Source: Promethearchaeota archaeon (GTDB lineage: Archaea > Asgardarchaeota > Lokiarchaeia > Sigyniarchaeales > SOKP01). From it: a stretch of DNA of 13,683 nt. The notes under the pieces are model-generated. The model ran no database searches and was not told where the DNA came from. It was given only the letters and a program-made list of their open reading frames with translations. The position numbers were made by a program, and so were the translations under genes. Location of the stretch: contig JAEOTZ010000064.1 of assembly GCA_016839585.1 (NCBI GenBank), positions 1 to 13,683 of the forward strand, written 5' to 3'. Positions 2,683 to 13,683 of this stretch are shown piece after piece. Each line of letters starts with the position of its first letter. Positions within the stretch are counted from its first letter, which is position 1.

Positions 2683-2907
2683 ATGGCAAACATAACCCTT
2701 TCAATCCCAGAAGATTTAAAAAAAGAAATGGAAGAATTCCCTGAAATTAATTGGTCAGAAGTTGCTCGAACATCTATTAAACAAAAAATAGCCCATCTTA
2801 AATTTTTAAAAGGATTTCGGATGGATAGTGAAATTACTCCTGAAGATGCCCTAGATCTAGGAAAAGAAGTAAGTAAATTGTTAGCTGACCGTTATATGAG
2901 GGAATAA
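2683..2907 (+). CDS. vapB: Ribbon-helix-helix/CopG-like antitoxin (VapB-type)
   Basis: MANITLSIPEDLKKEMEEFPEINWSEVAR is a typical archaeal RHH antitoxin N-terminus; ends 2 bp before a PIN-domain gene. Confidence 0.8.
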   Translation: MANITLSIPEDLKKEMEEFPEINWSEVARTSIKQKIAHLKFLKGFRMDSEITPEDALDLGKEVSKLLADRYMRE

Positions 2908-2909
2908 TA

Positions 2910-3353
2910 TTGAAATTAGTAATTGATGCTAATATTATATTTGCAGCCTTAATAAAGGAAGGCCTAACTGCTGAGTTAATTATCAATGATGAGCTTCAAT
3001 TATTTGCCCCCGAATTTTTATTAGAAGAAATCTCCAAATATCAAGACCAAATTTTTGAAAAAACACACAGATCAAAAGAAGAATTTGAGATTTTTGTACA
3101 AATACTAAATGAATATATTACTTTTATCCCTCAGAAAAATATTAAACCCTTCCTTGAAAAAGCAAATTTATTTTCACCTGATCCTAAAGATTCTGTTTAT
3201 TTAGCACTAGCATTAGCACTTAAATCGGCAGTTTGGTCAAATGATAAAAAGTTAAAAGAAGAACAAGTTCAAGTAAAAGTGCTATCCACAGAAGATCTAA
3301 TAAATAAAACTAAAATACTTAAAAAGAATAAGAAAAAAATAAAAAGAAATTGA
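2910..3353 (+). CDS. vapC: PIN-domain toxin (VapC-type RNase)
   Basis: LVIDANII, EEI, DPKDSVYLALA and WSNDKKL acidic PIN motifs; TTG start. Confidence 0.9.
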   Translation: MKLVIDANIIFAALIKEGLTAELIINDELQLFAPEFLLEEISKYQDQIFEKTHRSKEEFEIFVQILNEYITFIPQKNIKPFLEKANLFSPDPKDSVYLALALALKSAVWSNDKKLKEEQVQVKVLSTEDLINKTKILKKNKKKIKRN

Positions 3354-3355
3354 AT

Positions 3356-5374
3356 CTATTTTAATTCTTCTCTTATTTTTTCGTAGAAATCAAGCGACTC
3401 AGGATTTCTCAGTGCACCTCTATTAGCTACAGCCATTCTGTGAATAATCTTAGTAACTGCTATTTCAACCTTTTTGTTGCTGAAAGTATAGGGTATGCCA
3501 TCTGAAGGTGTTTGTAATATTAGTTTAGGAACATGTCTAGGTGAAGTTTTCTCTCTTAATGTTTTTTTAATTTTTTCTTTTAATTCATTAGTTAATTTAT
3601 ATCCCTCATTCAATAAAACAAACATTATTATTCTAATATCTCCCTGCCATTTCTGCCCAATAACTAGTGAATCAGCTATCTCGGGAAGTTGTTCAATTAC
3701 ATTATAGATTTCAGCTGTTCCTATTCGTACACCACTTGGTTTAAGAACAGCATCAGATCTACCCCAGAATGTAACTCCTCCAGTATCGCTGTGAATAACG
3801 ATATAATCACCATGCCTCCATACATTTTTGCCAATTTCCTTAAAATGATCAAAGTAAGCAGCTTTATATTTAGTCATATTGTCATCATCACCCCAGAAAT
3901 ATACAGGCATAGATGGTGATGGGGCTTCGCAGACCAGCTCAGCTTGTTCATCTTTTACTGGTTCTGCAATATCATTATAGGATTCAACTTTCATTGCGAG
4001 TGCTCTACCTTGTAATTCACCAGAATAAACAGGTAAGATAGGAATTGCACCTGCAAAACATCCATTGATATCAGTACCGCCACTTATTGAGTTAAAGTAT
4101 AAATCTTTTTTAATTTCACGATAAACATATTCAAATCCTTCAGGAGATAAAGTAGATGCAGTTTGTGAGATTTCTCTAAGTGAACTTAAATCGTATTTCT
4201 TGGCAGGCTTAAGATCAAGACCCATGAGATAATGAATATAAGCAGCGCTAGTTCCAAATATGGAAATTTTATGTTTTTCTATCAATTCAAAAAATCTAAG
4301 AGGATCAGGATAAAGGGGATTGCCATCATATAAAAAGATGGTTGCACCTACTGCTAATGCACTAATCAACCAATTCCACATTTTGGCTGGTATAAGGATA
4401 TCTTATACCATCATCCATGAGGGAGCAGTGATATAGTTCAGTACATCGCTCCTTTTAACATCAGTAGAAAGGATAAGCTCCTTTAGATGGTTTATAAGAA
4501 CTCCTCCAGCGCTCTGTACCATGCTTTTTGGCTTTCCTGTCGTTCCCGAGGAGAACATTACATATATAGGATGGTCGAATGGTAATTGCTCAAATTCAAG
4601 TGGAGGATTCTCATCCTTCGAGATAAAGTCCTCCCAATTGACGGCTTTAGGGATTCCTGATACATCACATTTTCCGTCTGAAATATAAGATACCACCACT
4701 ACTTTTTCTATGGAAGGGAGGGCATCAACGACCTCTTTTGCATTATCTCGAATATCAAATATTTTATCTCGATAAAAATATCCATCTACAGTAAAGAGCA
4801 CTTTTGGCTCAATTTGACCAAATCTATCAATTACTGCACTTGGTTGGAGCTCTGCTCCGCAAGATGCCCAAATTGCACCAATAGTCGCTCCCGCAAGCAT
4901 TGCTACGGGCGTCTCAATTAAGTTAGGAATATATGAAACAACTCTATCTCCAACTTTAACCCCTGCTTCCTTAAGAGATTTAGCTAAACGAGCTACGGTT
5001 TTATTTAATTCTGCATAAGTCATTGTTTTGGATACTTTAGTCTCACCTTGAAAGTCGAAAGCTAATTGATCGTCTTTATACTTCAGAAGGTTCTCCGCAA
5101 AATTGAGAAGACTTCCTTCAAACCATTTTGCCCCAGGAAAATGATTGAGATCATCAATAACTCTATAATATTTCTTGGAACAAATTATACCAGAAAACTC
5201 CCACATAGCTTCCCAAAAATCTGGGATCTCTTCAACTGACCATTTATATAACTCTTTCCCACCTTGAATATTTATTCCGTATTTATCATTAACAAAGTTA
5301 ATAAACCGTGTAATCTCTGTATTTTTTATCCATTCTTCTAAGGGTTCCCAGAGTTTTTTTCTATCATCGCTCAT
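3356..5374 (-). CDS. Acetoacetate-CoA ligase (acetoacetyl-CoA synthetase), two exons: complement(join(3356..4381,4412..5374)), 662 aa
   Basis: LNFAENLL, FSSGTTGKPK, SISGGTD, WRHGD and GRSDAVLKPSGVRIGTAEIY motifs. The two track ORFs are in the same frame, and removing 30 nt rebuilds the family motif SWMMWNW. Confidence 0.92.
4382..4411 (-). other. 30-nt BHB micro-intron in the acetoacetate-CoA ligase mRNA
   Basis: Sense strand: CCUCA UGGA UG^A UGGUAUAAG AUAUC CUUAUACCA GCCA AA^A UGUGG. Perfect 9-bp stem, 3 of 4 central-helix pairs, two 3-nt bulges; contains an in-frame UAA. Confidence 0.85.
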
Positions 5375-5637: not shown

Positions 5638-7431
5638 TTATTTAAAATGCATTTTTTTTCTCTCTAAGCTATCTCTATAATTTTCAAGCATTTCTCGCAT
5701 TAAATCCATCCCTAGATAAATATTGTAACCAACACCACCCCATTCACTATCAGTACGCCAGATTTTGTATGTTATTTTAAAATACCTTCTAACTTGGTTT
5801 ATAAAATTAATGCTTCCTGATGTTATTACAGTTGAGCCCACTTTTCCATCACCATCATAGTACCCTAAAATAAAAGCTAAATATAATTCTCTTGAAGCTA
5901 ATTTTGGCAATTCTATAGATTTAGATTTTTTCTTTCCAACAATGAAACCATGTTTAATTAAATTTTTAGCAAACTCATCACTAACAAACCGAATTCTCAC
6001 ATAATCAGTTATTTCTCCATCTCTTCTAATTTCAGTTTCCTTATGCTCAAGATTAAAACCTATAGCTCTGGCAAATTTATCTAATAAATCTTTCTCATCA
6101 TCTTTATGCAATTCAACTCCAAATCTTAAATATTTGTCATGCTTGGAAAGCCAACCTTCTGCGAATAACCATCCTAACCAATAAGCTTTTTCTTTAGTAT
6201 CAATATATTCAAAATAGTCAATTTTTAAGTTTGGATGCCAGCTGTAGATACCATGAAGTGACTTTTTTAGATTATTAGAATTTTTATATTTATTCAATAG
6301 ATTAATGATTTCTCTTGGAACTCTAGCTAAATTTTTTTTGATATTAGATTCATATTCTTCAATTGTTTCTATTGAAATTAAATAATTTGAATTTTTCTTT
6401 ATTTGGTTCCTCTTTTTTCTAATATGAGAATTTGACTGTCCCAAAATGAGACTTAGTTGCTCATCTGTTAATTGACCTCGCCATAAATTAGTTTCTGAAA
6501 CATTTTTAGCAAGAACACCTTTTAAATCATTTAAAAAGCTTAATGTACTATATTCATTTGTGATTACCGTTAAAAACTCATTAGTTTTTAAAGCTTCTAT
6601 ATCAGATCTAGTAAATTTTTTGGTAAGGTTTTCCTTCCAGAATTCAAGATAAGCGGAGAACCTGTCAAAAGCGGATATCCTTTTATTAGATGAAAGTCCA
6701 AGTAAGCATTTACCTGTGTCTAAATTTAAAATCCTATCATAAAAATCTTTCACTTGGGATAATGGGATATTTTGTTTCTCTCCTATTTTTAATAATTCCA
6801 TTTCTACATTTGAAGAAAATTCGAGCCATTTAATTAACATATTCCTCAGTTCTGGAGAGAGATTTAAAATTTTTTGTTTATTAACAAACACCTCAGAATG
6901 CGCCCGGAGGTGCTTAAGTAGCCTTGTATATTGTAAAGTAATTTCATCAATACCTCTCTTTATCGCATTAAATACTTCTTCTTTTTTTCTCTCAATTTTT
7001 ATACTTAAATCATCCTTGAGAATCTTCAGCTGTTTCTTTGTAATTTGTTTTAAATACGATTTTGAAAGAGAATCCATGTAAGATGAAATGATAGAAGCAC
7101 CCCTTCCAATTGTAATACAATAGATCCAACTGTTAATAAACGTATTTAATTCTTGGGGGTATTTCTCCTTAATTTGGCTCAATAACACCTTAGGAGGGAG
7201 CCCCGCTTTATCAAATAAACATGCTAATGCACCATCAACAATTTCCCCTATTCGTTCATCAATATACACTAAGGGAAGGTGGTGTTGTTTGCATTTAGGG
7301 TATTTTCCAAACCCAAAAAATCCAAGTTTTAAAGGTTTTACTCTTTTCATCATATCACAACCTAATTGAGGACAAATAGCAATCATATCCTCATTTGTGG
7401 TTTTCCGAGATACTTTAGTATATTCTACCAT
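5638..7431 (-). CDS. Protein with an N-terminal Cys/His Zn-binding motif and a C-terminal two-motif LAGLIDADG homing-endonuclease-like domain
   Basis: AYWLGWLFAEG and AFILGYYDGDG motifs about 100 aa apart, followed by ITSGSINFINQV; N-terminal CPQLGC...CKQH. Confidence 0.8.
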   Translation of the reverse strand: MVEYTKVSRKTTNEDMIAICPQLGCDMMKRVKPLKLGFFGFGKYPKCKQHHLPLVYIDERIGEIVDGALACLFDKAGLPPKVLLSQIKEKYPQELNTFINSWIYCITIGRGASIISSYMDSLSKSYLKQITKKQLKILKDDLSIKIERKKEEVFNAIKRGIDEITLQYTRLLKHLRAHSEVFVNKQKILNLSPELRNMLIKWLEFSSNVEMELLKIGEKQNIPLSQVKDFYDRILNLDTGKCLLGLSSNKRISAFDRFSAYLEFWKENLTKKFTRSDIEALKTNEFLTVITNEYSTLSFLNDLKGVLAKNVSETNLWRGQLTDEQLSLILGQSNSHIRKKRNQIKKNSNYLISIETIEEYESNIKKNLARVPREIINLLNKYKNSNNLKKSLHGIYSWHPNLKIDYFEYIDTKEKAYWLGWLFAEGWLSKHDKYLRFGVELHKDDEKDLLDKFARAIGFNLEHKETEIRRDGEITDYVRIRFVSDEFAKNLIKHGFIVGKKKSKSIELPKLASRELYLAFILGYYDGDGKVGSTVITSGSINFINQVRRYFKITYKIWRTDSEWGGVGYNIYLGMDLMREMLENYRDSLERKKMHFK

Positions 7432-8360: not shown

Positions 8361-8651
8361 ATGTATCAAGAAATAGTTCCTCTATTAAAATGTCCTAATT
8401 GCAATAAACCATTACATCTTGTAGATTCAGTATTAGAAGCCGGTGAAATAGTACAGGGAAATTTAAAATGTAGTTGAGAAGAGACTTGGGAGATAAGAGA
8501 AGGGATTTTAGATTTCAGCGTAGAAAAACAGGAAAGTGTGAACAGGTGGTGTGAATTAACTAAAGAGATCACATTTGAAGAATTAGATGAGATGATTTTG
8601 AGTAAAAGTGTATTTACGTCTAAACTCAACATATTCACAAATTTTTGCTAA
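8361..8651 (+). pseudogene. Truncated Trm112-like Zn-ribbon N-terminus (as seen in methyltransferase fusions) with an in-frame TGA
   Basis: MYQEIVPLLKCPNCNKPLHL...GEIVQGNLKCS*EETWEIREGILDF. TGA at 8475-8477; the frame then runs into the 3' end of the convergent ACD gene. Confidence 0.65.
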
Positions 8652-10085
8652 AGCATTAACTGGGCGATCCCATAATCTAAAGAGAATTACACCATTGTTC
8701 CTTAATCTTTTAGACCAAGGAGTGTTAAAATTCATAGGGCTTATATGTAATATTGGTACCGAATACTTTTCTGAATTTTTGACTGTTGGCTTAACTAATT
8801 TATCAGCTAAGGAATCAATAACTTCTTCAGGTTGATGCTGAAATTCAGCATGTTTAGCAATCTCTTCATATGATAAATAATCATCCATAACATCCTGAAA
8901 CCCAACAACCCCATATTGAATGATGGCATCGACTTCGCCTGATTTCATTAATAATTCAGGCAGAGTAATATAGAAATACGGAAGATCCATATCAAAAGTA
9001 CAATCTATAGGATTTTTAAAACTTGCTGTTTGAGGTAAAATTTTCTTTAACTCATCTTGAAGTCCTTCAGAAAGTTCTGGAACTACTAAACCATGCTTTT
9101 CAGCATTATTAGCAACCATTGCTCCTGGACCTCCAGAATTTGTTATGATCCCTAATCGATTACCTTTAGGCTGGATGCCCCTTGATAAAATTAACGCAAT
9201 ATCTAAAAATTCTTGAACATAATCTGTTCTGATAACCCCAGCTTCTTTAAATATTGCTTCAAACATCCTTGAATCACCTGCTAGTGCTCCGGTATGACTT
9301 TGTAAAGCTCGATTTCCTGCTTTAGAACCACCTACATATATCGCAATAATAGGTTTTTTGGGTGTAATTTCTCTTGCTAATTCTAAAAATCTTTTTCCTC
9401 GTTTTAGTTCTTCAACATAGAGTCCTATGATCTCTGTATATGGATCATCTTTATAATATTCTAAGCAATCAACGATATCAATATTAGCTTCATTCCCAAC
9501 TGATAAAGATCTACCCAATCCTAAATCTAAATTTATTGGATCATACCAAATATGGCATGAAAGTGTACCACTTTGCGAGCCAATTGAAAATTTACTCCTT
9601 TCAAGGTTTTCCCAAATAAAGATATTGAAGGATTTATTTTCTTTTTCTGGTCCATACCAGTTATTAAAAACACCTAAACAATTTGGTCCAATAAATCTAA
9701 TTCCATATTCTGTAGCAATCTCATTGATTTCTTCTGTTAAGGTATTTTTGCGATCTCCAACTAATTCACGAAAACCTCCAGAAATTAAAACTATCCTTTT
9801 GACTCCTTTTACTCCACACTCCTTAAAAATATGAGGGACTACTTTAGCGGGGAGGACGATGACTACGAGATCGGGAATCTCCGGAACGTTAGCAATAGAT
9901 TTATAAGCTTTAAATCCCATCACTGTCTGTAATTTTAAGTGTATAGGGTAGACCTTTCCATCATATCCTGACTTAATTAAATTCATAATTTGAAGGGCAG
10001 CTAAGGAATTACCTTTATTATTAGCTCCATAAATCGCAATGCTTTTAGGATTTAGAAATTCATGCAGGAAATGATGTTCACTCAT
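8583..10085 (-). CDS. ADP-forming acetate/acyl-CoA ligase alpha subunit (CoA-binding protein)
   Basis: NPKSIAIYGA, RFIGPNCLG, SQSG, SVGNEA, phospho-His motif SHTGALAG, ITNSGGPG and NPID motifs. Confidence 0.93.
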   Translation of the reverse strand: MSEHHFLHEFLNPKSIAIYGANNKGNSLAALQIMNLIKSGYDGKVYPIHLKLQTVMGFKAYKSIANVPEIPDLVVIVLPAKVVPHIFKECGVKGVKRIVLISGGFRELVGDRKNTLTEEINEIATEYGIRFIGPNCLGVFNNWYGPEKENKSFNIFIWENLERSKFSIGSQSGTLSCHIWYDPINLDLGLGRSLSVGNEANIDIVDCLEYYKDDPYTEIIGLYVEELKRGKRFLELAREITPKKPIIAIYVGGSKAGNRALQSHTGALAGDSRMFEAIFKEAGVIRTDYVQEFLDIALILSRGIQPKGNRLGIITNSGGPGAMVANNAEKHGLVVPELSEGLQDELKKILPQTASFKNPIDCTFDMDLPYFYITLPELLMKSGEVDAIIQYGVVGFQDVMDDYLSYEEIAKHAEFQHQPEEVIDSLADKLVKPTVKNSEKYSVPILHISPMNFNTPWSKRLRNNGVILFRLWDRPVNALAKICEYVEFRRKYTFTQNHLI

Positions 10086-10250
10086 ATATTTTCACTTATT
10101 TTTAAAAAGATTTCATCACTTTAAAATATAAATAAAACATTTCTGCGATGTTTATGTCTAAAATATTTGATGGATTAAGAATTTTAGATTGTTCTCAGTT
10201 TATCTCTGGATTTATTTCCTATGATATATAAGCTCCTGTCAAATTAAAAA

Positions 10251-10279
10251 GACTCAAATCTTGTTTCTACATTTGAGTC
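10251..10279. repeat. 9-bp inverted repeat in a divergent intergenic region
   Basis: GACTCAAAT-N11-ATTTGAGTC; function unknown. Confidence 0.45.
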
Positions 10280-10347
10280 AAATTTTTCTTTAAATATGTA
10301 GAAATTATTTTTCTTTTAGGTTTATAAAATTTCTGCTAAATAAAAAA

Positions 10348-10665
10348 TTGAAAAAGTATAAAATGTCAGTGAAAAAAGTTAAAGATATTCTTATGTATTA
10401 TTGCCAAGTCTGTGGATGGAGTATTTCGAAAAAATTACTAAATGAAATAACTGGGAAAAAAGAAGATATTAATTATTGTACTGAATGTGGAGCTGAGCTC
10501 ATTAAGGGGAATATCATTAGTGACAAAGAATTTGTTATAAAAAATAATATTGATTTAGAGAGAGACATAAATATCACATTAATTAAAAAAGATTTAGATT
10601 TACCATTTCATCGAAGTCACATTAAAGAGATTACAGATTATTTGAAGAAAAGATATTCAAGTTAA
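10348..10665 (+). CDS. Small zinc-ribbon protein
   Basis: CQVC...CTECG pairs. Start may instead be the ATG at 10363. Confidence 0.65.
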   Translation: MKKYKMSVKKVKDILMYYCQVCGWSISKKLLNEITGKKEDINYCTECGAELIKGNIISDKEFVIKNNIDLERDINITLIKKDLDLPFHRSHIKEITDYLKKRYSS

Positions 10666-10811
10666 TATGTAAATAAATTATAAAATTCGATATCTTTTAA
10701 TTTTCAATTTTATGATTTAATTATCATGATTTTTGTAATTTTTTTCTTAATTCAAAAAATTTTTTATTCGTAAAATACAAATTTAATATAAAAACAAAAA
10801 GAGGAAAATAT

Positions 10812-12067
10812 ATGACCAAAATATTTGAAGAAATCCGCATTCTTGATTGCTCACAGAATTAAAGCATATCGCTTTTTAATGAGTAAAATTCATAAGCGGA
10901 CCTTGGGCGGGTATATTTTTTGCAGATCAAGGGGCTGAAGTAATTAAGGTAGAAATTTGAATGCATATCGTATTCATACTATAACCTCCGCCATTTGGAG
11001 AAAGTTTTCGATACTTTATTTTATATGATAAAACCATGTTTCCCTTATTTTCTATATTAAATAGAGGAAAAAAGTCAATTTCTTTAGATTTAAGAAAAGA
11101 GGAAGCTCAAGAAGTTTTCAAGAAATTAGTGGAAAGATCAGATGTAGTAATAGAAAATTTTGTAAGAGGTACGATGGAAAAGTGGGGTATTGGGTATGAT
11201 GTATTAAAAAACATTAATTCAAAATTAATATATGCCAAAATTTCTGGATATGGTAATGAGGGTTTAGAAGAATACACCAACAAAACAGCTTTCGATATTA
11301 TTATTCAAGCAGAGGCAGGAATCTTAAATGCTCTAGGATTTAAAGAAGGACCTCCGAGACTTCCTATTGCAGATTATACAGCAGGTCATATCGCGGCTAT
11401 TGGGATTAGCCAAGCACTTTATTATAGAGAAAAAACAGGTATTGGGCAATTTATTGATATTTCTATGCATGATATCATGTTTGCTATCAATGTTAGAGCT
11501 CAAGCAAAAGAATTTATACCTTTAGCATCCAAAATTGATGTAGGAGGTAAATTTTTACCAGTTTATAATCAATACAAAACAAAAGATGGTAAAAAAATTG
11601 TATTTACAACTCTAACTGAAAACCAATGGATAAGACTATGCGAAAATGTATTGAAGAAACCAGATTTACTAAAAGATAATAGATTTGATAATATAATTAA
11701 GCGTTTTTCTTATGTAGATGAATTAGATAAGATTATAGAAGAATGGACAACAACTGTAACAAGAGAAGAAGCTATAAAACAACTTAATGAATTCAGAATT
11801 CCATGTGGAAAAACCCTAACCATTAATGAAGTTCATAATCATCCAAACCTAAGGGCAAGGGGGATGTTATGTGATCAATTTGATTTTACAAAATGGGGTG
11901 TTGAAAAAGCAACAATTCCCAACCGATTAATCAATTTCTCCGAAACAAAAGGTTCTGTTAATGTTCCAGGTCCGGAATTTGGTGTTCATAATGAAGAGAT
12001 TTATTGTGGTTTATTAGGGTATAAAAAAGAAGATTTAAAGAGATGGAAGCGTGAGAAAATAATATAA
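10812..12067 (+). CDS. Family III (CaiB/BaiF) CoA-transferase, three exons: join(10812..10854,10887..10954,10985..12067), 397 aa
   Basis: Spliced N-terminus MTKIFEEIRILDCSQFISGPWAGIFFADQGAEVIKVEPPPFGE matches the family pattern. NRGKKSISLDL, DVVIENF and catalytic PIADY follow; GAGG RBS at 10801. Confidence 0.92.
10855..10886 (+). other. 32-nt BHB micro-intron 1 of the CoA-transferase gene
   Basis: UGAUU GCUC AC^A GAAUUAAAGC AUAUC GCUUUUUAAU GAGU AA^A AUUCA. Central helix GCUC/GAGU; excision corrects the frameshift and removes the stop. Confidence 0.8.
10955..10984 (+). other. 30-nt BHB micro-intron 2 of the CoA-transferase gene
   Basis: AG GUAG AA^A UUUGAAUGC AUAUC GUAUUCAUA CUAU AA^C CU. 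Central helix GUAG/CUAU; contains in-frame UGA and UAA; excision gives KVE|PPP. Confidence 0.85.
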
Positions 12068-12160
12068 GACATACATATAAGGATTGGAAAAAATTAATTA
12101 AATCATATATATTTATTTTCTAAAAAAATATCTATTAATGTCAAAAAAAGGTAAACTAAT

Positions 12161-12457
12161 ATGAGTGAAGAAGGAGAAGAAAAAGAAAATTTCTTAGAGA
12201 AAATGAATAAAGCATTCGTAGATTTTGTAGGGAGTGTTTTTGGAGAATCTGGAAAAGAATTTATTGAGGAAACTTCTGAAAAAGTGAAAGATTTTTCAAG
12301 TGGTGCCATAAAAAAATTCGTGGAATTTAGTGACGATATGATAGAAAGGTTAAATCTCCAAGAAAATGAGCAAGTTATTAAAACTCGTGATAGTATCGAA
12401 GATATGCTAAAACAGGCAGGATTCCTAAAAGAAGACGAAGAAGAAGAAGAGTTTTAA
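12161..12457 (+). CDS. Acidic helical hypothetical protein
   Basis: 98 aa ORF with an AAGGT RBS and a poly-Glu tail, followed by a T-run. Confidence 0.75.
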   Translation: MSEEGEEKENFLEKMNKAFVDFVGSVFGESGKEFIEETSEKVKDFSSGAIKKFVEFSDDMIERLNLQENEQVIKTRDSIEDMLKQAGFLKEDEEEEEF

Positions 12458-12561
12458 TTCAATTTTTTTTAGCTTTAATGAAGTATTATTAAATTCTTAT
12501 TTATTTTAATTTTTTTACGATATTTTTTTAACAAATTGCTTGAAGAATGTTAAAAATTGCA

Positions 12562-12932: not shown

Positions 12933-13442
12933 CTATGTCCATTTCTTTTTTAAATCTGAAGCTGTTAATTCCCTTACTTTATTAATAGCAAATATCACAT
13001 ACTTATAGCATTGCTGTTCCCATTTTTTATTCTCAATATATTTATTCGCAGAATCTAAATCACTAAAATCTATTCCACATAGTTCATAACAAGTAGTTGA
13101 ACCGAATTCTTTTTCGAAGTAATGCACAAATTTAGCCGCTGTTTGATATGCCTCCAAATTTTGGGCTAATTTTTTCTGCCCTCCAACTATTATGCCAATT
13201 GCAGCACAACCTCCACAAACAGCTCCACAAGGGCCTTTCCAACCTTTTAATGATTTGAAACCACCAAAACCTCCGGCTAGTGGGACTGCAAGATTATGAA
13301 AATAAAAATTATCCACTCCCAGAACTTCAAGGATATTTGTTAGAGTAAGTGCTGCACAGTTTGTTTCCATTTCTAGTTTCGGTAAAATTTCTTCTAAGTT
13401 TTTAATTTTTTCATCAAATCGTAAATTAATATCTTTAACCAT
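12933..13442 (-). CDS. C-GCAxxG-C-C family putative redox protein
   Basis: NCA, GGFGG, PCGAVCGG, FGSTTCYEL and QC motifs. GAGGTGA RBS (13448-13454) favours the ATG at 13442. Confidence 0.88.
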   Translation of the reverse strand: MVKDINLRFDEKIKNLEEILPKLEMETNCAALTLTNILEVLGVDNFYFHNLAVPLAGGFGGFKSLKGWKGPCGAVCGGCAAIGIIVGGQKKLAQNLEAYQTAAKFVHYFEKEFGSTTCYELCGIDFSDLDSANKYIENKKWEQQCYKYVIFAINKVRELTASDLKKKWT

Positions 13443-13463
13443 CCAAATCACCTCTAGAAATAA

Positions 13464-13683
13464 CTAGTAGTTTGGAATAAATCCATTATTCAAGATGATT
13501 TCTGTTGCCATTTTCGCAACAGTTCCTACTACATTGGAGCAATGATGTATCAAACCGGATTCAAATGCTTCCTCAAACTCCTTTTCATCCCAGAGGTTGT
13601 AAGTTCGTCCCACTAATTTTGTTTGCACATCAAAGCATCGACATGACCCAAATTTTTCTACATATATGTCATGAAGTTGTTTA
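13464..13683 (-). CDS. C-GCAxxG-C-C family protein, C-terminal part (5' end outside the window; missing from the ORF track)
   Basis: KQLHDIYVEKFGSCRCFDVQTKLVGRTYNLWDEKEFEEAFESGLIHHCSNVVGTVAKMATEIILNNGFIPNY*. Confidence 0.8.
   Translation of the reverse strand, partial: KQLHDIYVEKFGSCRCFDVQTKLVGRTYNLWDEKEFEEAFESGLIHHCSNVVGTVAKMATEIILNNGFIPNY

What the first reader, a model, noticed from the sequence alone, without database searches (positions are those of the whole stretch)
10844..10892. Frame-shifting 32-nt intron 1 in the CoA-transferase N-terminus
The true start at 10812 is missed by the ORF track because of TAA at 10860 and a frame change. Rejoining needs a deletion of length 2 mod 3. The BHB register GCUC/GAGU with bulges ACA and AAA predicts 32 nt and yields LDCSQFISGPW, which matches the family spacing (LDxSxxxxGP). 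The frameshift excludes stop-codon readthrough as the explanation. The inner stem is AAAGC/GCTTT; the outer stem is imperfect.
Basis: partly seen in the sequence, partly recalled or inferred. Interest (0 to 1): 0.88.

Follow-up and report, generated by a model that had tools for sequence, protein, structure and literature searches.

The report
tRNA-type intron in Asgard enzyme gene
A CoA-transferase gene of an Asgard archaeon is broken by a 32-base insert (and a second, 30-base one) shaped like the introns archaea cut out of tRNAs; relatives lack it exactly or carry similar inserts at the same spot while the gene stays under selection, so the messenger RNA is very probably spliced, which the papers I could search document inside the coding part of only one archaeal gene.

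Summary
Observation confirmed, interpretation supported; no RNA data were available. The insert is 10855-10886 (32 nt). The organism is a Promethearchaeota (Loki-type Asgard) archaeon. Of 61 distinct orthologous alleles, 48 read LDxxxFISGP-type sequence contiguously across the site. 13 carry 32-35-nt inserts at the same base; all break the frame, all three length classes occur, and all keep the bulge-helix-bulge (BHB) register. A second BHB intron (10955-10984) must also go; removing both gives 397 aa. Carrier genes stay under purifying selection (dN/dS 0.07-0.11). The genome encodes an (αβ)2 EndA with the broad-specificity loop, and RtcB. New here: (1) intron 1 is scattered over the gene tree (at least 7 changes); (2) the nearest intronless relative apparently lost both introns by swapping in a foreign 5' end; (3) intron 1's hairpin resembles intron 2 and the genome's tRNA-Ala(UGC) intron (a lead, spotted by eye, then tested). 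Weak point: the intron-side stem is poor and the BHB fold lies 3.9 kcal/mol above the predicted minimum. This scan has noted such introns before, in this genome, in orthologs of this gene and in other Asgard genomes. Closest in print: the crenarchaeal cbf5 intron.

The parts
10800..10805 (+). Shine-Dalgarno-like AGAGGA before the true start
   Evidence: sequence; not conserved in relatives, so weak
10812..10854 (+). Exon 1 (43 nt): start codon to the first base of the Gln15 codon
   Evidence: orthologs start at the same codon
10845..10848 (+). Exon-side outer helix, 5' strand (pairs with 10888-10891, 3 of 4 pairs)
   Evidence: same pattern in all 13 carriers
10849..10852 (+). BHB central helix, exon strand GCUC
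   Evidence: GCTC in 12 of 13 carriers vs 16 of 48 intronless alleles
10853..10855 (+). 5' bulge ACA; predicted cut 10854|10855
   Evidence: BHB rule plus ortholog junction
10855..10886 (+). Intron 1, 32 nt, frame-shifting, TAA at 10860
10861..10875 (+). Intron hairpin AAAGC-AUAUC-GCUUU; GC-N5-GC core kept in carriers
10881..10884 (+). BHB central helix, intron strand GAGU
   Evidence: 4/4 pairs in 11 of 13 carriers, 3/4 in two
10885..10887 (+). 3' bulge AAA; predicted cut 10886|10887
10887..10954 (+). Exon 2 (68 nt): ..FISGPW...EVIKVE
   Evidence: matches PF02515 positions 12-33; orthologs
10955..10984 (+). Intron 2, 30 nt, in frame with TGA and TAA; helix GUAG/CUAU, bulges AAA and AAC
   Evidence: 30 alleles carry it; compensatory change to GUGG/CCAU in L146 and L156
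10985..12067 (+). Exon 3 of the family III CoA-transferase (spliced product 397 aa)
4382..4411 (-). Third BHB-like intron of the window, 30 nt with a stop, in the WMMWNW motif of an AMP-binding (acetoacetyl-CoA synthetase-like) gene
   Evidence: 7 carriers incl. this genome, 22 intronless orthologs

Best explanation
A tRNA-type intron in a messenger RNA. The pre-mRNA folds so that four exon bases (GCUC) pair with four intron bases (GAGU) between two 3-nt bulges. The heterotetrameric splicing endonuclease EndA cuts after the second base of each bulge, and the ligase RtcB joins the exons. The same happens at intron 2, and only the doubly spliced message encodes the 397-aa family III CoA-transferase with its intact CoA-binding N-terminus. 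Shown here: the insert, its exact borders, the conserved BHB register, selection on the joined frame, presence of the enzymes. Inferred: cleavage by EndA, ligation by RtcB, transcription, and any regulatory role. The intron is most likely a tolerated passenger that comes and goes by recombination, not an adaptation.
For: Exact absence in 48 of 61 distinct alleles. 13 carriers have inserts of 32, 33, 34 and 35 nt at the same base, only 54-97% alike; all break the ORF (all five 33-nt ones hold a stop). The helix is 4/4 in 11 and 3/4 in 2, always at the same distance from the 3' end. In the one carrier whose exon strand reads GTTC (L028), the partner base changed too (C-G to U-A). Intron 2 shows A-U to G-C in two alleles. 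Splicing at the BHB sites gives 385 aa or more in 29 of 31 carriers; one ends at a contig edge and one has a 1-nt deletion. dN/dS between carriers is 0.07-0.10 at dS 0.17-1.3, and 0.11 against the nearest intronless allele. An independent metagenome contig (L201) has the same intron 2 and a variant intron 1, so this is no assembly error. The genome has two EndA genes. One has the catalytic Tyr/His/Lys and aligns with A. pernix alpha, including the loop Lys44; PMC5829648 reports Asgard EndA as (αβ)2 with the loop that permits relaxed motifs. RtcB is intact.
Against: No junction read was seen. The intron-side stem is weak: the BHB-constrained fold is 3.9 kcal/mol above the minimum (0-4.4 in other carriers), although the genome's own tRNA-Ala(CGC) intron shows a similar 3.8 gap. 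Fold z-score is only -1.84. Carriers are kin, so counts overstate independence. Across the genome comparison, BHB enrichment in frame-breaking versus in-frame inserts was not significant (p=0.065 and 0.22). An intact distant paralog exists, so essentiality cannot be argued.
Confidence: 0.9

Rival explanations
1. Pseudogene: the inserts killed the gene.
For: No expression data; an intact paralog exists; one carrier (G047/L029) has a 1-nt deletion in exon 3.
Against: dN/dS 0.07-0.10 between carriers that diverged to dS 0.17-1.3; 29 of 31 carriers are otherwise intact; inserts of different length keep the BHB register.
Confidence: 0.02
2. Ribosomal bypassing or programmed frameshift (T4 gene 60 / byp-like; from my knowledge): the ribosome hops over a hairpin from a take-off codon to a matching landing codon.
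For: A stop follows 5 nt into the insert and a hairpin follows it; sizes resemble byp elements (recalled).
Against: An exact take-off/landing match exists in 1 of 12 intron-1 and 3 of 29 intron-2 alleles, and not in this genome; four intron-1 alleles have no stop inside; all three frame classes occur. The helix joins exon to intron with fixed 2-nt offsets, which bypassing does not need.
Confidence: 0.03
3. The insert is excised precisely from the DNA in part of the population (phase-variation-like), or the gene is an on/off polymorphism repaired by recombination.
For: Presence is scattered over the gene tree and the gene is mosaic.
Against: No target duplication beyond one base and no terminal repeats within the insert; long persistence under selection in carriers; the BHB geometry is an RNA-enzyme signature.
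Confidence: 0.03
4. Truncated protein from Met 11036, with the upstream pieces as relics.
For: An open 343-aa frame with ATG exists.
Against: It lacks Pfam positions 1-53; that ATG is present in only 6 of 31 carriers; exons 1-2 are under selection (1 amino-acid vs 4 silent differences to L201, 4 vs 16 to L026).
Confidence: 0.02

Closest known systems
cbf5 pre-mRNA intron of Crenarchaeota (Watanabe 2002; Yokobori 2009, PMC2738675)
   Same: Short intron (16-44 nt there, 32 here) inside a coding sequence; BHB-like borders, often relaxed; cut between bases 2 and 3 of the bulges; hetero-oligomeric EndA; gained and lost among relatives.
   Different: Different phylum (Asgard). A metabolic enzyme rather than an RNA-modifying gene. 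Two introns in one mRNA, 68 nt apart. Presence varies within one genus, with at least 7 changes on the gene tree. About nine such inserts in this genome by my partial census. cbf5 splicing is shown by cDNA; this one is not.
BHB site in the 5' UTR of Haloferax HVO_1309 (Schwarz 2020, PMC7714728)
   Same: EndA acts on an mRNA.
   Different: That site is untranslated; here the intron breaks the reading frame.
Asgard tRNA introns (bioRxiv 10.64898/2026.10.13.758758)
   Same: Same lineage group, BHB borders, repeated gains and turnover; none yet shown spliced.
   Different: The preprint treats tRNA genes only ('mRNA' 0 hits) and found almost no copying between tRNA genes. Here an mRNA intron resembles a tRNA-Ala intron.
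CoA-transferase family III (PF02515; CaiB/BaiF, formyl-CoA transferase fold)
   Same: The intronless ortholog covers profile 2-366, E 8e-95, and matches PDB formyl-CoA transferases from residue 8 on.
   Different: Substrate unknown; the neighbours are acyl-CoA synthetase, enoyl-CoA hydratase and AMP-binding genes.

Membership tests
Archaeal BHB (EndA-spliced) intron | 4-bp central helix between exon and intron | tested here: met
   4/4 here; 11 of 13 carriers 4/4
Archaeal BHB (EndA-spliced) intron | Two 3-nt bulges, cut after the second base, restoring the mature sequence | tested here: met
   Predicted junction equals intronless orthologs
Archaeal BHB (EndA-spliced) intron | Flanking helices on both sides (strict hBHBh') | tested here: inconclusive
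   Outer 3 of 4 pairs; inner only one G-U next to the bulge here, 3-4 pairs in ten other carriers: a relaxed motif
Archaeal BHB (EndA-spliced) intron | EndA able to cut relaxed motifs, and RtcB, encoded | tested here: met
   enzyme type from PMC5829648; activity not tested
Archaeal BHB (EndA-spliced) intron | Spliced RNA or in vitro cleavage observed | not testable with these tools
   No RNA holder listed for this stretch
Archaeal BHB (EndA-spliced) intron | Host gene alive (for an mRNA intron) | tested here: met
   dN/dS 0.07-0.11; 29 of 31 carriers full length after splicing
Translational bypass element | Matched take-off and landing codons | tested here: not met
Group I/II intron or known RNA family | Catalytic RNA core / Rfam match | tested here: not met
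   32 nt is too short; no Rfam hit at E<=1
CoA-transferase family III | PF02515 over its full length | tested here: met
   Exon 2 and exon 3 hit separately; intronless ortholog covers 2-366; the joined protein has no reference and was not submitted

The most novel reading that the evidence does not exclude
In these Asgard archaea, tRNA-type mini-introns move between tRNA genes and protein-coding genes. Intron 1 shares descent with the tRNA-Ala(UGC) anticodon-loop intron and with intron 2 of the same gene. The introns then spread and vanish among species by homologous exchange of gene segments. The result is multi-intron mRNAs spliced by EndA/RtcB in the closest prokaryotic relatives of eukaryotes, and a first traceable donor for an archaeal mRNA intron.
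Probability: 0.35. Interest if true: 0.92.

Novelty: new variant of a known kind. Interest (0 to 1): 0.78.

Why it matters
In the papers I could search, splicing within an archaeal coding sequence is documented only for cbf5. A two-intron mRNA for an ordinary metabolic enzyme, in a genome with about nine or more such introns, means protein-enzyme splicing of mRNA is routine in some Asgard archaea. That bears on how the eukaryotic host lineage handled interrupted genes before the spliceosome, and on endonuclease/RtcB-type mRNA splicing such as HAC1/XBP1 (my inference). It also means Asgard gene annotations lose N-termini or call live genes pseudogenes. Close relatives with and without the intron, plus a candidate tRNA donor, make the open question of how BHB introns arrive directly testable.

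Tried and rejected
RNA evidence: no RNA holder was listed for window 8500-12500; this is no evidence either way, and read laying could not be used. A homology-free genome scan for BHB plus ORF-joining gave as many hits as a mirror-geometry control, and a loop-motif version matched its controls (24 vs 12-21); both rejected as non-discriminating. One search used a structure string that I misregistered; it is disregarded, and pairs were counted in scripts instead. Census test of BHB enrichment in frame-breaking vs in-frame inserts: not significant (the second criterion was chosen after seeing the data); the census covers 2.4 of 3.34 Mb of one relative and misses shared introns. The first tRNA-Ala comparison caught only CGC genes and was negative; it was redone for UGC. 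The idea that all three window introns form one ATATC family was rejected: the AMP-binding gene's loop varies in relatives and intron-1/2 profiles rank it at background. The sigma-70 promoter scan is not meaningful for an archaeon. Loss by reverse transcription was considered (one RT gene), but it does not explain the diverged exons 1-2 of G043. Literature searches found no paper on Asgard mRNA introns; the library lacks most subscription papers.

Full report
Setting. The window is contig C53 of a 3.45-Mb, 29% GC genome. The closest relatives of this protein lie in records named mostly Promethearchaeota, so the host is a Loki-type Asgard archaeon. The ORF track shows a 343-aa ORF at 11036-12067 that matches CoA-transferase family III only from profile position 54; a short frame at 10883-10957 matches positions 12-33.

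Observation. ATG 10812 reads to TAA 10860, and the family sequence resumes in another frame. Several deletions of length 2 mod 3 reopen the frame. The BHB register selects 10855-10886: helix GCUC 10849-52 with GAGU 10881-84, bulges ACA and AAA, cut after the second base. Only two registers give that product, and only this one has a helix (4/4 against 1/4). Shuffled inserts reach such a helix in 1.2% of trials, and 0.08% with the inner hairpin as well. The motif is relaxed: one G-U and three mismatches border the 5' bulge, and ViennaRNA prefers a longer helix that swallows the bulges. The BHB-constrained fold lies 3.9 kcal/mol higher. The genome's tRNA-Ala(CGC) intron shows 3.8 and its tRNA-Ala(UGC) intron 0, so this does not count strongly against splicing, but splicing may be inefficient.

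Orthologs fix the borders. Genus searches and two collection scans gave 60 distinct alleles plus L002. 48 have no insert and read the predicted junction directly. 13 carry 32-35-nt inserts at the same base, in two sequence subtypes. All break the ORF, all three frame classes occur, and the central helix is 4/4 in eleven and 3/4 in two. The exon strand GCTC, a synonymous choice, is kept in 12 of 13 carriers against 16 of 48 others (p=2.5e-4, overstated by kinship), and the single exception has a compensating intron change. A second insert, 10955-10984, occurs in 30 alleles; two of them switch the helix from GUAG/CUAU to GUGG/CCAU. All four states (both, either, none) exist. A separate metagenome contig (L201) carries the same intron 2 and a variant intron 1, which excludes an assembly error.

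The gene is alive. Removing both introns gives 397 aa; 29 of 31 carriers give full-length proteins. dN/dS is 0.10 to L201, 0.07 to L026 and 0.07-0.10 in other carrier pairs, and exons 1-2 share that constraint. The intronless ortholog covers Pfam 2-366 and aligns with solved formyl-CoA transferases from its eighth residue, so the N-terminus is part of the fold. Met 11036 is not conserved. Bypassing lacks matched codons.

Machinery. Two EndA genes are present. One has the Tyr-His-Lys triad and aligns with the A. pernix alpha subunit through the specificity loop and its Lys44; the other lacks the His and fits a structural subunit (my reading). PMC5829648 describes Asgard EndA as (αβ)2 with that loop, the type that cuts relaxed motifs. 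RtcB is intact. Many tRNA genes of the genome carry introns. Mechanism: transcription, BHB folding, two EndA cuts per intron, RtcB ligation, translation from 10812. Every enzymatic step is inferred.

Gain and loss. On a 57-allele gene tree intron 1 needs 9 changes, at least 7 forced by well-supported branches, and it is no more clustered than shuffled labels. The gene is a mosaic, so the tree is only a guide. G043 sits among three carriers but has neither intron. Its exons 1-2 differ from this genome at 25 of 111 bases against 69 of 969 downstream (p=1.8e-6), whereas carrier L201 differs evenly. The simplest reading is that G043 replaced its 5' end with a foreign intronless allele: loss by recombination, not by reverse transcription of its own message. 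This is inference from one case.

Possible origin. I noticed by eye that the genome's tRNA-Ala(UGC) intron (C72, 31 nt) has a similar AAGC-N5-GCUU hairpin, then tested it. A profile from relatives' intron-1 cores, with copies like this genome's left out, ranks that tRNA intron 1st to 16th of 6.9 million positions over six window choices. Whole intron-1 sequences score 11.0 against that gene and 8.0 or less against the other 28 tRNA calls. No hairpin-preserving shuffle of 500 reached the family score, though 13 of 500 did for this genome's intron alone. An intron-2 profile ranks intron 1 7th to 64th, so the two introns are also alike. The shared core is only about 13-18 nt and AT-rich, the reciprocal ranks are weaker (97-2380), and a shared binding motif could explain it. 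It stays a lead. It contrasts with a 2026 preprint that found almost no copying among Asgard tRNA introns.

Scale. A third such intron lies at 4382-4411 (-). Aligning about 1,750 ORFs from 2.4 Mb of relative G006 gave 23 frame-breaking inserts of 18-60 nt in this genome. Nine have 25-40 nt and BHB-like borders in well-conserved genes (three in this window); two such were found in G006. The nine are my pick after inspection; the preset criterion passed seven, and enrichment over in-frame indels was not significant.

Comparison. It works like the crenarchaeal cbf5 intron (PMC2738675) and meets every sequence-level feature except a strict inner helix; observed splicing could not be tested. PMC7714728 lists cbf5 and one Haloferax 5' UTR site as the known mRNA cases. 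My searches found no paper on Asgard mRNA introns. Earlier notes of this scan report the same kind of intron in this genome, in orthologs of this gene, and with RNA support in other Asgard genomes; I treat these as leads, not support.

Verdict. A real feature and very probably a spliced mRNA intron (0.9); a new variant of a known kind; interest 0.78.

Noticed in passing
window 4382-4411 (-): 30-nt BHB-like intron with a stop, splitting an AMP-binding (acetoacetyl-CoA synthetase-like) gene into ORFs 4403-5374 and 3356-4381; perfect 9-bp inner stem, helix 3/4; in 7 of 29 parsed orthologs.
   Followed up: yes
G000 C25:15416, C27:6607, C33:20984, C43:72715, C61:45810, C62:43178: Six further 25-40-nt frame-breaking BHB-like inserts absent from G006: two small GTPases, and by motif or earlier notes a thioredoxin, an Fe-S protein, dnaG and a phosphofructokinase-like gene.
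   Followed up: partly
G006 C1:1129379 (+) and C1:1621977 (-): Two BHB inserts (28, 30 nt) in G006 that this genome lacks; the first looks like ribosomal protein uL11 by recalled motif.
   Followed up: no
L281 / G000 C72:7809-7913 (-): tRNA-Ala(UGC) with a 31-nt intron whose hairpin resembles intron 1; identical in G043.
   Followed up: partly
window 10812-12067 vs L026, L034, L039: The gene is a recombination mosaic: G057 is 92-99% identical in the 3' half but about 80% in the 5' half; G043 is mostly 89-96% identical except exons 1-2.
   Followed up: partly
L029 (G047): A carrier of both introns has a 1-nt deletion near codon 110 of the spliced frame: assembly error or a decaying copy.
   Followed up: no
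window 5638-7431 (-): 597-aa ORF with a weak C-terminal LAGLIDADG-like domain (E 1.4e-4), next to an unannotated 217-aa ORF.
   Followed up: no
window 2683-3353 (+): Small gene pair (74 and 147 aa) that looks like an antitoxin plus PIN-domain toxin, from recalled motifs only.
   Followed up: no
window 8583-10085 (-): Stand-alone ADP-forming acyl-CoA synthetase alpha-like gene (CoA-binding plus ligase domains), divergent from the CoA-transferase.
   Followed up: no
window 13464-13628 and 12933-13451 (-): A short ORF ending like a C_GCAxxG_C_C protein lies just before a full C_GCAxxG_C_C gene at the contig end.
   Followed up: no
G000 C86:59799 (-): 30-nt insert with BHB-like pairing after GGTTCGAT, probably a T-arm intron of a tRNA, caught through a shadow ORF.
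   Followed up: no
G000 C16:25596-26219 (-): One reverse transcriptase gene in the genome.
   Followed up: no
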